Assembly: GCF_032444005.1 (NCBI RefSeq)
Contig: NC_091285.1
Span: 608,034,001-608,098,000 of the forward strand
DNA: 64,000 bases
Reading direction: 5' to 3'
Source: Ranitomeya imitator
Taxonomy: Eukaryota
Shown here: piece after piece, positions 58,031-64,000 of the stretch
Layout: every line of letters starts with the position of its first letter
How positions within the stretch are numbered: the first letter of the stretch is position 1
Made by a program: the position numbers and the translations under genes
The notes under the pieces: generated by a model
Told to the model about the DNA's origin: nothing
What the model saw: the letters and a program-made list of their open reading frames with translations, nothing else
Databases searched by the model: none

Positions 58031-58774
58031 TGTTATGATCTGGTGGCCTAGGAGCAGCATGAGACGGACTCCGGAGAAGGTGGTCCCTGTACTGACCGCA
58101 AACCCTGAACCTAGCAGCGCAACTAGAAGTAGCCATGGGGGGGTACCTAACACTCCCTAGACCCCTCGGCACAGCCTAAGATCTAACTACCCCTAAAGAC
58201 AGAAACAGGAAATCTATCTTGCCTCAGAGAAAATCCCCAAAGGATAGATAGCCCCCCACAAATATTGACTGTGAGAGGAGAGGGAAATCAGATTTTAGCA
58301 TAGGAGGCCATACTAGCTAAAAAGAAAGAATAGAACAGAGTACTATGCGGTCAGTATAAAAACACTAGAAAATATCCACCACAGATAATACGAATCACCA
58401 CATCTGACTAAAGACATGGGGGGTATATCTGCATCTCCAGAGAAATAGCTAGGCTGCAAAAAAACCTTCACAGACTAAGCTGGACAAGACAAAAACATGA
58501 AAATGCACAGAACTATAAGGTCCACAGCAGGTGGACAGCAAAAACAAAGCCAGGACTTATCTTTGTAGAAAAGCACAGCAAACTGGAGAGACCAGCAGGG
58601 AAGTGAATCCTTCAAAAACAATGGACAACTGGCACTGACTAAAGGATCCTGCAAAGCTATATACCCCAGTCAGTTTTGCAATTAGTAGATACACCTGTCC
58701 ACTCCTGCAGTCCAGGCACAACTGCATTACCCTCTACAACCACCGGAGGGAGCCCAAAAGCTGAATTCACAACA
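58031..58774 (-). repeat. 3' LTR (744 bp) of the chromovirus
   Basis: Direct repeat of 63545-64000. TATATA at 58658-58663. AAAGGGGGGGG PPT directly upstream on the - strand. Confidence 0.95.
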
Positions 58775-61700
58775 GTACCCCCCCCTTTGAGGGAGGGGTC
58801 ACCGAACCCTCACCAGAGCCCCCAGGCCGATCAGGATGAGCCCGATGAAAGGCACGAACCAAATCAACGGCATGGACATCAGAGGCAGAAACCCAAGAAT
58901 TATCCTCCTGGCCATAACCCTTCCACTTGACAAGGTACTGAAGCTTCCACCTCGAAAAACGAGAATCCAAAATCTTCTCAACAACATATTCCAACTCCCC
59001 ATCGACCAATATAGGGGCCGGAGGATCAACAGAGGGAACAACGGGCTCCACATATTTCCGCAACAAAGATCTATGGAAGACATTATGATTAGCAAAAGAG
59101 GCCGGAAGCGCCAGGTGAAAGGACACCGGATTAATAATCTCAGAAATCCTATAAGGACCAATAAATTGAGGCTTAAACTTAGGGGAAGAAACCTTCATAG
59201 GAACATGACGGGAAGATAACCAAACCAGATCACCAACCCGAAGCCGGGAACCAACACACCGACGACGATTAGCAAACCGCTGAGCCTCCTCCTGAGACAG
59301 CACCAAATTGTCCACCACATAAGCCCAAATCTGCTGCAACCTGTCGACCACAGAATCCACACCAGGAAGGTCAGAAGGCTCAACCTGCCCAGAAGAAAAA
59401 CGAGGATAAAATCCAAAATTACAAAAAAAAGGCGAAACCAAAGTAGCCGAACTAGCCCGATTATTAAGGGCAAACTCGGCCAATGGCAAAAAAGCCACCC
59501 AATCATCCTGATCAGCAGACACAAAGCATCTCAAATAGGTCTCCAAGGTCTGATTAGTTCGCTCAGTCTGGCCATTTGTCTGAGGATGAAATGCAGAAGA
59601 AAAAGACAAATCAATGCCCAGCTTGGCACAAAAGGCCCTCCAAAACCTAGAAACAAACTGGGAACCTCTGTCGGACACAATATTCTCCGGAATACCATGC
59701 AAACATTCCACATGCTGAAAAAACAACGGAACCAAATCAGAAGAAGAAGGCAATTGAGGCAAAGGCACCAAATGAACCATCTTAGAAAATCGGTCACAGA
59801 CAACCCAGATAACCGACATTCTTTGGGAAACAGGAAGATCGGAAATAAAATCCATAGAAATATGCGTCCAAGGTCTCTCAGGGACCGGCAATGGCAAAAG
59901 CAACCCACTAGCGCGGGAACAGCAAGGCTTAGCCCGCGCACAAATCCCACAGGACTGCACAAAAGAACGCACATCCCGTGACAAAGAAGGCCACCAAAAG
60001 GACCTACTAACCAAATCTCTGGTACCAAAAATCCCAGGATGGCCAGCCAACACAGAACAATGAACCTCAGAAATCACTTTACTAGTCCATCTATCAGGAA
60101 CAAACAGTTTCCCCACAGGACAGCGGTCAGGCTTATCAGCCTGAAATTCCTGAAGAACCCGTCGCAAATCAGGGGAGATGGCAGAAAATGCTGACCGGCT
60201 CAAGAACCCCAGGGGAATCAGGAAAAAAACTCCTAGAGAGGGCATCCGCCTTAACATTCTTAGTACCAGGAATGTACGAGACCACAAAATCAAAACGGGA
60301 AAAAAACAGGGACCATCGAGCCTGTCTAGGATTCAGCCGTTTGGCAGACTCGAGGTAAATCAGATTCTTATGATCGGTCAGGACCACAATACGGTGCTTG
60401 GCCCCCTCAAGCCAATGTCGCCACTCCTCAAATGCCCACTTCATAGCCAACAACTCCCGATGGCCGACATCATAATTGCGTTCTGCAGGCGAAAACTTCC
60501 GAGAAAAGAAGGCACACGGTTTCATCAAGGAACCATCAGAATTCCTCTGAGACAAAACGGCCCCTGCCCCAATCTCAGACGCGTCAACCTCAACCTGAAA
60601 TGGAAGAGAAACATCTGGCTGACGCAACACAGGGGCAGGAGTAAATCGGCGTTTAAGCTCCTGAAAGGCAGAAACAGCCGCGGAGGACCAATTCGTCACA
60701 TCAGCGCCTTTCTTGGTCAAATCGGTTAGAGGTTTAACCACACTGGAGAAGTTGGCAATGAAATGACGATAAAAATTAGCAAAGCCCAAGAATTTCTGAA
60801 GGCTCCTCACAGATGTGGGCTGAATCCAATCATGAATGGCCTGAACCTTAACCGGATCCATTTCTATAGATGAGGGAGAAAAAATGAAACCCCAAAAAGA
60901 AACCTGCACTCCAAAGAGGCACTTTGACCCCTTCACAAATAAAGCATTATTACGGAGGATCTGAAATACCATCCTGACCTGTTTCACATGAGACTCCCAA
61001 TCATTGGAAAAAAATCAAAATATCATCCAAATATACAACCATGAATTTATCAAGATAACTCCGAAAGATATCATGCATGAAGGATTGGAACACAGATGGG
61101 GCATTAGAGAGTCCGAATGGCATCACAAGGTATTCAAAATGGCCTTCGGGCGTATTAAATGCAGTTTTCCATTCGTCACCCTGCTTGATACGAATAAGAT
61201 TATATGCCCCTCGAAGGTCAATCTTAGTAAACCAGCTAGCCCCCTTAATCCTAGCAAACAAATCAGTAAGCAAAGGCAAGGGGTATTGAAATTTAACCGT
61301 GATCTTATTCAAGAGGCGATAATCAATACAGGGTCTCAAGGAGCCATCCTTCTTGGCAACAAAAAAGAACCCCGCTCCCAACGGTGAAGAAGATGGCCGA
61401 ATATGCCCTTTCTCCAAAGACTCCTTAATATAGCTCCGCATGGCGGTATGTTCAGGCACAGACAGGTTGAAAAGTCGGCCCTTAGGGAACTTACAACCTG
61501 GAATCAAGTCAATAGCACAATCACAGTCCCTATGCGGTGGAAGGGAACTGGATTTGGGCTCATCGAATACATCCTGGAAGTCAGACAAAAACTCAGGAAC
61601 TTCAGAAGAGGGGGAAGAGGAAATTGACATCAAAGGAACCTGATCATGAACCCCCTGACAACCCCAACTAGCCACAGACATGGATTTCCAATCTAACACC

Positions 61701-62073
61701 GGATTATGTAGCTGCAACCATGGAAAACCCAGCATAATATCATCATGCAAATTATTCAACACCAGAAAACGACAATCTTCCTGATGGGCTGGCCCCATGC
61801 ACATGGTCAGCTGTGTCCAAAACTGAGGTTTATTTTTAGCCAACGGTGTAGCATCAATGCCCCTCAAAGGAATAGGGTTCTGCAAAGGCTGCAAGGGAAA
61901 ACCACAACGTCTGGCAAATTCTAAGTCCATTAAGTTCAGAGCGGCGCCTGAATCCACAAATGCCATGACAGAAATTGATGATAATGAGCAGATCAAGGTC
62001 ACAGATAACAGAAATTTAGGTTGTATAGTACTGATGGCAACAGAACTAGCGATTCTCTTTGTACGCTTAGGGC
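58767..62073 (-). pseudogene. Chromovirus pol (PR-RT-RH-IN-chromodomain), frameshifted
   Basis: [65 protein letters not shown]...GHPG...C..C, SMDF, SDRGSQF, QTERTNQ; chromodomain YVVEKILDSR...YLVKWKGYGQEDNSWV. Lesions are a +1 in the A7 run 61008-61014 and a deletion/frameshift near 60185. Confidence 0.93.
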
Positions 62074-62673: not shown

Positions 62674-63408
62674 AATCAGAAATAACATGAGCAGAATCGC
62701 CGCAGTAAAAACACAACCTATTCTGACGCCTGAATGTTTGACGTTCAGCTCTAGACAAAATCCTATCACACTGCATAGGCTCAGGGCTCCACTCAGAGGA
62801 CAACGCCACAGTGTGCACAACTCTGCGCTCGCGCAAGCGCCGATCAATCTGAATGGCCAGAGACATAGAATCACTCAGACCAGCAGGCATGGGGAACCCC
62901 ACCATAACATCTTTAACGGATTCAGAAAGACCCTTTCTGAAAATTGCCGCCAAGGCATCCTCATTCCATTTAGTCAGTACAGACCATTTTCTAAATTTCT
63001 GGCAATACGATTCTGCCGCTTCTTGACCTTGACACAGGGCTAACAAGATTTTCTCAGCCTGATCCACAGAATTAGGCTCATCATACAACAACCTCAATGC
63101 CTGAAAGAACGAATCAACATTAAGCAAAGCAGGATTGCCAGATTCCAGGGAAAATGCCCAATCCTGTGGGTCACCACGCAGCAGAGATATGATGATTTTA
63201 ACCTGCTGAATAGGATCACCAGAAGACCGGGGTCTTAATGCAAAAAACAGTTTACAGTTATTTTTGAAACTCAAAAATTTGGATCTGTCACCAAAGAATA
63301 AATCAGGAGTGGGAATCTTAGGTTCTAAGTCTGAACAATGAAATCTGAAATACCCTGTACCCTAGCAGCAAGCTGATCCGCCCGAGAAACTAACTCCTGA
63401 ACATTCAT
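62674..63408 (-). pseudogene. Chromovirus gag with a CCHC zinc knuckle
   Basis: ATG at 63408 (MNVQELVSRADQLAARVQG), a frameshift near 63330, then LEPKIPTPDLFFGDRSKF...EPMQCD...CFYCGDSAHVISDC. Confidence 0.88.
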
Positions 63409-64000
63409 GTTAATACTAGATTCCGTAGCCACCCAGAGGTAAAGAGAGAGGAAAATTCCAAACAGGCTAAGGAAAAAAAAAATGGCTCAAAAGCTTCCCT
63501 CCCTTCTTCTGAGATGCAATTAACTCATTGTGGGCCAGTTGTACTGTTATGATCTGGTGGCCTAGGAGCAGCATGAGACGGACTCCGGAGAAGGTGGTCC
63601 CTGTACTGACCGCAAACCCTGAACCTAGCAGCGCAACTAGAAGTAGCCGTGGGGGGTACCTAACACTCCCTAGACCCCTCGGCACAGCCTAAGATCTAAC
63701 TACCCCTAAAGACAGAAACAGGAAATCTATCTTGCCTCAGAGAAAATCCCCAAAGGATAGATAGCCCCCCACAAATATTGACTGTGAGAGGAGAGGGAAA
63801 TCACATACGCAGATATGAAATCAGATTTTAACATAGGAGGCCATACTAGCTAAAAAGAAAGAATAGAACAGAGTACTATGCGGTCAGTATAAAAACACTA
63901 GAAAATATCCACCACAGATAATACAAATCACCACATCTGACTAAAGACATGGGGGGTATATCTGCATCTCCAGAGAAATAGCTAGGCTGCAAAAAATCCT

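What the first reader, a model, noticed from the sequence alone, without database searches (positions are those of the whole stretch)
58625..63544. Chromovirus with a Tf1-like self-priming signature instead of a tRNA primer-binding site
Seen: on the - (sense) strand the 5' LTR ends ...ACA and is followed by GT-ACAACTGGC (63542-63534), which I do not recognise as a tRNA-complementary PBS. The 3' LTR has TATATAG (58663-58657) and, 30 nt downstream of the TATA's first base, GCCAGTTGT (58633-58625). That is an exact 9-nt complement of the PBS (10 of 11 with flanks). Known: S. pombe Tf1 primes reverse transcription by folding the first ~11 nt of its mRNA onto the PBS, and this has been proposed for vertebrate Tf1/sushi-group elements. 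Inference: the transcript starts at about the G of GCCAGTTGT and self-primes.
Basis: partly seen in the sequence, partly recalled or inferred. Interest (0 to 1): 0.7.

Follow-up and report, generated by a model that had tools for sequence, protein, structure and literature searches.

The report
Self-priming vertebrate chromovirus, capped primer footprint
This broken jumping gene carries, where a host tRNA would normally dock, nine letters that match a spot 30 letters after its own TATA box, a match kept through many sequence changes in its relatives, so the family likely starts copying itself with the first nine, probably capped, letters of its own RNA, a trick already proposed for this group and proven only in yeast.

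Summary
Observation confirmed; the 5' LTR beyond the window carries the same 9-mer (64166-64158). The element is a recent, broken copy of a large chromovirus family (6,212 exact LTR-end+PBS matches). A sister family (pol 88-89% identical) has PBS ACAAGTGGC and LTR GCCACTTGT, a compensatory change. Among 144 related elements, 95 carry the exact complement of their own PBS (16 different words) against 22 of 4,464 cross-pairings; a TATA-like box lies 30-32 nt upstream in 89 of 95. None has TGG beside the LTR. Botched copies stop at PBS plus one C (14 of 14 distinct junctions that keep the PBS), although the LTR has T, not G, at -1: this fits a 9-nt primer whose cap was copied. Corrections: '10 of 11' is not conserved (duplex is 9 bp after a 2-nt spacer), and the Tf1 flanking helix is not predicted in this clade. 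No transcript start was mapped. Self-priming in vertebrate Tf1/sushi elements is already proposed in print, so this is a new member of a known kind with unusually direct evidence. The scan reported self-priming earlier in other clades of other genomes, not in this one.

The parts
63545..64000 (-). 5' LTR, part inside the window (whole LTR 763 bp, to window-equivalent 64307; its self-primer word lies at 64166-64158, outside the window)
63543..63544 (-). 2-nt spacer GT between LTR end and paired site; likely the overhang trimmed at integration (inferred)
63534..63542 (-). Primer-binding site ACAACTGGC, exact complement of the LTR word
63533..63533 (-). C right after the PBS, present in 133 of 144 elements; candidate partner or copy of the cap G (inferred)
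62924..63199 (-). gag capsid-like region (Pfam Retrotrans_gag); gag is broken
62077..62671 (-). 595-bp insertion in gag, absent from 3 of 3 sibling copies, ending in an (ATT)n tail; LINE-like 3' fragment (label from recall)
58767..62140 (-). pol in three open pieces: protease, reverse transcriptase, RNase H, integrase, Tf2-type SH3; broken by stops and frameshifts
58842..58988 (-). Chromodomain at the integrase C-terminus (PF00385, E 2.9e-13)
58778..58788 (-). Polypurine tract, followed by TAC and the TG of the 3' LTR
58031..58774 (-). 3' LTR, 744 bp; 7 mismatches in 743 aligned bases and 2 indels against the 5' LTR
58657..58663 (-). TATA-like box TATATAG in U3
58625..58633 (-). 3' LTR copy of the self-primer word GCCAGTTGT, likely +1 to +9 of R
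58026..58030 (-). Target-site duplication CTCAT (other copy beyond the window)

Best explanation
This is a recently inserted, broken copy of a vertebrate chromovirus whose primer-binding site exactly matches a word 30 nt after its own TATA box, and the family likely primes reverse transcription with the first nine, probably capped, bases of its own transcript. Shown: anatomy, complementarity in both LTRs, conservation, compensatory change, fixed TATA spacing, lack of TGG, end-points of botched copies. Inferred: transcription starts at the G; the 5' end folds about 620 nt onto the PBS; the element's RNase H cuts after base 9 (by analogy with Tf1); DNA synthesis first copies the 2-nt spacer, later trimmed at integration; plus-strand synthesis copies the nine bases and adds a C opposite the cap, which would explain the near-universal C after the PBS.
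For: Sister family: PBS ACAAGTGGC goes with GCCACTTGT in 13 of 20 5' LTR regions (3 more in the 3' LTR only) and window-type word in 1 of 20; window-type PBS goes with GCCAGTTGT in 32 of 40 and GCCACTTGT in 0 of 40. 95 of 144 elements hold the exact complement of their own PBS, 16 distinct words; other elements' words 22 of 4,464; shuffled words 68 of 28,796. TATA-like box 30-32 nt upstream in 89 of 95, 76 at exactly 30; random positions 7%. The pattern holds in four or five deep integrase clades (quick tree). Columns +1..+9 average 0.99 conservation against 0.74-0.84 in flanks, 85 copies. Uncompensated PBS variants stay rare (19 and 44 places; 0 of 43 with a readable LTR site compensated), whereas the compensated one makes up 28 of the first 100 listed matches. 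Of 19 distinct rearranged junctions, 14 keep the whole PBS; all 14 have C next and none follows the leader past offset 13; in 9 the joined sequence cannot supply that C. LTR base at -1 is T in 87 and G in 3 of 95. Cap-templated C is described for reverse transcriptases (PMC8496859, passage).
Against: No transcript start or primer RNA was observed. 49 of 144 elements lack an exact complement upstream: 22 differ by one base at TATA spacing, 3 by two, 24 have no such site and were not examined one by one. The helix that spans the PBS in Tf1's three-duplex fold is predicted in most elements of the other clades but in only 3 of 10 of this clade, with no consistent partner in R-U5. Five of 19 junctions end at offsets 9-10, and two copies in which the leader resumes break at offset 11 with no C. 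The junction search sees only breaks at offsets 7-15 and only this clade. Word limits and the TATA pattern were set after looking at the data. Related copies are not independent: the window/sister change is one event. The tRNA test is incomplete.
Confidence: 0.88

Rival explanations
1. Self-priming, but the primer is cut from the 3' R region or from a second or read-through RNA rather than being the capped 5' end; the extra C is a non-templated addition or comes from the leader.
For: Both LTRs hold the word. C-rich untemplated runs occur at these junctions (L289, L293, L305; four insertions right after offset 12), and Tf1 RT is reported to add untemplated bases (PMC11042837, PMC3035444, passages). 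An earlier AI note proposed a far-end primer for another clade (unchecked).
Against: A primer with upstream U3 bases attached would be copied beyond base 9 and give A (complement of the T at -1), not C; the word's 5' edge sits at a fixed 30 nt from TATA in 76 of 95 elements, as expected of a start site.
Confidence: 0.08
2. Priming by a host tRNA, whole or as a fragment, with the LTR complement serving only as a regulatory or packaging helix.
For: The PBS holds TGG at offsets 8-10. Only one tRNA type (Lys-TTT) was recovered from the genome, so the full tRNA set was not compared.
Against: 0 of 144 elements have TGG within 6 nt of the LTR end. One place in 5.96 Gb has the 9-mer upstream of a T-arm motif, and it is not a tRNA (the motif hits 30 of 30 tRNA loci). 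Sixteen PBS words each follow their own LTR. Plus-strand copies stop at offsets 12-13, not near 18-20 (breaks beyond 15 could not be seen).
Confidence: 0.03
3. Chance complementarity in one dead copy.
For: Two matches of the 9-mer in 64 kb are within chance.
Against: Position, conservation and compensatory change across families.
Confidence: 0.01

Closest known systems
Tf1/Tf2 of Schizosaccharomyces pombe (and Tj1, Tosmo1-3, Tcry1)
   Same: Ty3/gypsy chromovirus layout; PBS complementary to the presumed RNA 5' end; no tRNA site; PBS copied onto the plus-strand 3' end (PMC7175516, PMC10085805, PMC11042837; passages).
   Different: Duplex of 9 bp (10 in most neighbouring clades) against 11; a 2-nt spacer; about 620 nt between primer and PBS; the flanking helix across the PBS is not predicted in this clade; start site and RNase H cut are shown for Tf1, only inferred here.
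[quoted passage not shown]
   Same: Chromodomain integrase in what reads as a large amphibian-type genome (inferred from size and repeat content); self-priming is described as proposed for the group (PMC6317226, PMC4600332, PMC10085805, citing Butler et al. 2001); Amn-san is the commonest LTR element of frogs and the only one with a chromodomain there (PMC4131045; passages).
   Different: No reference sequences were available for a tree, so placement rests on domains. In the papers I could read, vertebrate self-priming is a prediction; family-wide compensatory change and the PBS+C end-point were not found there. Butler et al. 2001 itself was not seen.

Membership tests
Chromovirus (Ty3/gypsy) | gag, PR-RT-RH-IN order, paired TG...CA LTRs, PPT, target-site duplication | tested here: met
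Chromovirus (Ty3/gypsy) | Chromodomain at integrase C-terminus | tested here: met
   PF00385 E 2.9e-13
Tf1/sushi group | RT or IN phylogeny grouping with Tf1 and sushi-ichi | not tested
   Tree holds only elements of this genome; best solved relative is Ty3 RT; Tf2-type SH3 domain present. No homologue search was run to fetch named references.
Tf1/sushi group | No tRNA-type PBS | tested here: met
   0 of 144 with TGG within 6 nt of the LTR end; half-tRNA pattern negative; full tRNA set not compared
Tf1/sushi group | PBS complementary to own LTR at TATA spacing, with compensatory change | tested here: met
Tf1/sushi group | The complementary word is the mapped 5' end of the RNA | tested here: inconclusive
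   Only assembled contigs were available; indirect support from TATA spacing and junction end-points
Tf1/sushi group | Three-duplex 'pretzel' with helices flanking the PBS | tested here: inconclusive
   A U5 hairpin is predicted but no better than shuffles; a PBS-spanning helix appears in 3 of 10 elements of this clade, without a consistent partner, and in 21 of 21 elements of other clades (2 to 21 bp)
Tf1/sushi group | Primer released by the element's RNase H | not testable with these tools
   RNase H domain present; activity needs an experiment

The most novel reading that the evidence does not exclude
Vertebrate chromoviruses prime with a capped 9-10-nt piece of their own RNA, and their reverse transcriptase copies the cap: the resulting C is recorded at the ends of botched insertions and has become fixed right after the PBS in every clade. 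The genome itself would then map both the start site and the primer length, and the PBS, free of any tRNA, drifts through many words in one genome.
Probability: 0.55. Interest if true: 0.6.

Novelty: new member of a known kind. Interest (0 to 1): 0.42.

Why it matters
Self-priming has been demonstrated by experiment only in fission yeast and predicted for vertebrate elements. Here one genome supplies the natural version of the compensatory-mutation experiment (16 matched words) and a footprint of primer length. It names an exact start site and a capped 9-mer to look for, and suggests that a PBS + C rule can mark start sites of such elements in other genomes. An abundant vertebrate family that needs no tRNA primer would also lie outside silencing by tRNA 3' fragments (inference).

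Tried and rejected
RNA evidence: no RNA holder listed; eight contig-only layings gave no start or end pile-ups; two single adaptor-like ends lay about 60 nt upstream of the word on opposite strands and say nothing. tRNA catalogue: the search returned 63 matches, and the 30 loci fetched held only anticodon TTT. Idea that R +11..+17 pairs with the bases after the PBS: true in the window's subfamily, lost in others, rejected. Idea that single PBS changes are quickly copied into or from the LTR: 0 of 43 rare variants compensated; one lone double change (L050/L091) is left unexplained. A guessed sister-family motif found 2 places, not used. Long-range partner for the leader in this clade: none consistent. 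ESM Atlas gave no answer. The careful tree did not finish; the quick one is used only to show deep clades (17 of 73 loci had no or too short an integrase match). Primary papers by Levin, Lin and Levin, and the Esnault and Levin review were not held. Literature searches for vertebrate compensatory evidence or a cap-derived C found none, but the library lacks most subscription papers, including Butler et al. 2001; no supplements were opened.
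Full report
Observation. The coordinates are right. On the - strand the 5' LTR ends at 63545, followed by GT and ACAACTGGC; the 3' LTR (58774-58031) has TATATAG and, 30 nt after its first T, GCCAGTTGT. The neighbouring genome stretch shows the rest of the 5' LTR (763 bp) with the same TATA and word at window-equivalent 64166-64158, and CTCAT on both flanks. The LTRs differ at 7 of 743 aligned bases plus 2 indels, so the insertion is recent. 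Pfam finds gag, protease, RT, RNase H, integrase, a Tf2-type SH3 and a chromodomain; the frames are broken and gag holds a 595-bp insertion missing from 3 of 3 siblings. Two matches of the 9-mer in 64 kb are within chance; a match in a 6-nt slot at TATA spacing has a chance of about 3e-5.

Conservation in the family. The LTR end plus PBS occurs exactly 6,212 times in the 5.96-Gb genome, control 0. Of the first 30, 24 keep GCCAGTTGT upstream, mostly 530-640 nt away, while the bases on either side vary. In 85 aligned copies (of 89 tried) columns +1..+9 average 0.99 majority, against 0.84 for -9..-1, 0.79 for +10..+18 and 0.74 for +19..+60. The duplex is 9 bp, after a 2-nt spacer.

Compensatory change. 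A degenerate search revealed a sister family with PBS ACAAGTGGC, 29 of the first 100 listed matches. Its pol is 88-89% identical to the window's in the two uninterrupted alignments among five compared. Of 20 fetched, 13 have GCCACTTGT in the 5' LTR region, 3 more only in the 3' LTR, 1 (L213) is a window-type copy with a lone PBS change, and 3 have neither; of 40 window-type elements 32 have GCCAGTTGT and none GCCACTTGT. This is one evolutionary event. To get more, I took gag hits from two Pfam searches. Nine loci were dropped because no 5' LTR end could be placed, and re-fetched duplicates were counted once, leaving 144 elements with 32 PBS words. 95 hold the exact complement of their own word within 1,250 nt upstream; other elements' words hit 22 of 4,464 times (several are same-family copies with a lone change) and shuffled words 68 of 28,796. 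Sixteen words are matched on the 5' side and four more in the 3' LTR, three of them at clear TATA spacing. They fall in four or five deep integrase clades, with several word changes inside clades (quick tree, 56 rows). Word limits (offsets 3-12; 3-11 here; 5-14 in one family) were set. Of the 49 misses, 22 differ by one base at TATA spacing, 3 by two, and 24 show no site. Rare variants of this family's PBS (19 and 44 places) are uncompensated in 43 of 43 readable cases and scattered over subfamilies: they look like decay after insertion, and only the compensated word multiplied.

Is the word the RNA start? A TATA-like box starts 30-32 nt upstream in 89 of 95 cases, 76 at exactly 30, against 7% at random LTR positions (motif list chosen after seeing the data). 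The base at -1 is a pyrimidine in 91 of 95 and +1 is a purine in all, the usual initiator pattern (own knowledge). RNA data could not map the start.

Footprint of primer length. Earlier AI notes on other clades mentioned fold-back copies, which prompted a search for LTR end plus PBS without the normal leader at offsets 16-18: 42 places, all examined. In 13 the leader resumes, four of them after a short C-rich insertion placed right after offset 12; 12 are inverted joins, 12 jump to an internal site, 5 run into other DNA at offsets 7-10. The 24 rearranged copies give 19 distinct junctions (L268 read by eye). Five end at offsets 9-10. Fourteen keep the whole PBS (L268 with one change); all 14 have C next, none follows the leader past offset 13. 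In 5 the joined site shares the CC, so the end is ambiguous; in 9 it does not. L272 folds back on its own LTR word and copies U3 with one extra C between. Since the LTR has T at -1 (87 of 95; G in 3) while the base after the PBS is C in 133 of 144 elements, the C is not a copy of the next LTR base. [quoted passage not shown] Against: two leader-resuming copies break at offset 11 without C; untemplated C-rich runs occur here, and Tf1 RT adds untemplated bases (PMC11042837, PMC3035444, passages); the search sees only offsets 7-15 in this clade.

tRNA. None of 144 elements has TGG within 6 nt of the LTR end. The 9-mer upstream of a T-arm motif occurs once in the genome and is not a tRNA; the motif hits 30 of 30 real tRNA loci. 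The full tRNA set was not obtained.

Flanking structure. With the PBS held open, a helix spanning it is predicted in 21 of 21 elements from other clades (2-21 bp; z-scores from 0.5 to -4.4), and by eye it co-varies in one clade (GGACCC/GGGTCT, GGATCC/GGATCT, GGACCT/AGGTCT). In this clade it appears in 3 of 10, energies are no better than shuffles, and no consistent distant partner exists. Either this clade does without it or the prediction misses it.

Mechanism. Likely: Pol II starts at the G; capped GCCAGUUGU pairs with the PBS about 620 nt away (-13.7 kcal/mol); RNase H cuts after base 9, as shown for Tf1 between bases 11 and 12 (PMC7175516, passage); synthesis copies the spacer, then U5 and R; the plus strand copies primer and cap. 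Cut, spacer trimming and cap copying are inferred.

What is known. Self-priming is the stated common feature of the Tf1/sushi group, first shown in Tf1 and predicted for vertebrate members (PMC10085805, PMC6317226, PMC4600332; passages). Chromodomain elements of the Amn-san type are the commonest frog LTR elements (PMC4131045, passages). Also seen as passages, of little bearing: PMC3601003, PMC5341516, PMC2864245, PMC7472051. Butler et al. 2001 and the Levin papers were seen only as citations. Nine searches found no vertebrate covariation study and no cap-derived C for these elements, in a library that lacks most subscription papers. The scan's earlier notes concern other clades in other genomes; none fits this element by place, words or sequence.

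Verdict. It works like Tf1 (0.88) and is most probably a V-clade Tf1/sushi element, with tree placement untested and the pretzel inconclusive. New member of a known kind; interest 0.42, rising to about 0.6 if the cap footprint holds.

Noticed in passing
window 62077-62671 and 22757-23353: The 595-bp insertion in gag has a 98.8% identical copy in opposite orientation elsewhere in the window: a young LINE-like family with an (ATT)n tail.
   Followed up: partly
window 55905-57280 (-): Open frames beside the element with a BED zinc finger (PF02892, E 7.7e-05); looks like a decayed hAT-type transposase (label from recall).
   Followed up: partly
window 50679-51014: Near-perfect palindrome: 167-nt arms, 96% complementary, 2 nt apart.
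   Followed up: no
G000:C7 about 143.72-143.74 Mb; L083, L119, L122: Head-to-tail arrays of related elements with a period of about 5.1 kb, the arrangement reported for integrase-independent Tf1 insertion at PBS homology (PMC11042837, passages).
   Followed up: no
L011-L014, L025, L034, L035, L117: One family has a 4-nt spacer (GATT) before its 10-nt paired site instead of 2 nt.
   Followed up: partly
L071, L073, L085, L098 just after the LTR end: In the ATACTAGCGC clade the bases after the PBS can fold back on the PBS itself (by eye), a possible switch between priming and translation.
   Followed up: no
L015-L040 after the PBS: In one clade the presumed gag ATG lies one base after the PBS, so the PBS-spanning helix runs into coding sequence.
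   Followed up: no
L275, L308: A second, imperfect PBS complement about 100 nt before the LTR end captured a fold-back; the same junction is found at two places.
   Followed up: partly
L050/L091: A single copy with a matched change in both PBS and LTR word, outside a CpG context.
   Followed up: partly
L296, L297: A further related family with the same LTR end and a different PBS word; its LTR complement was not checked.
   Followed up: no
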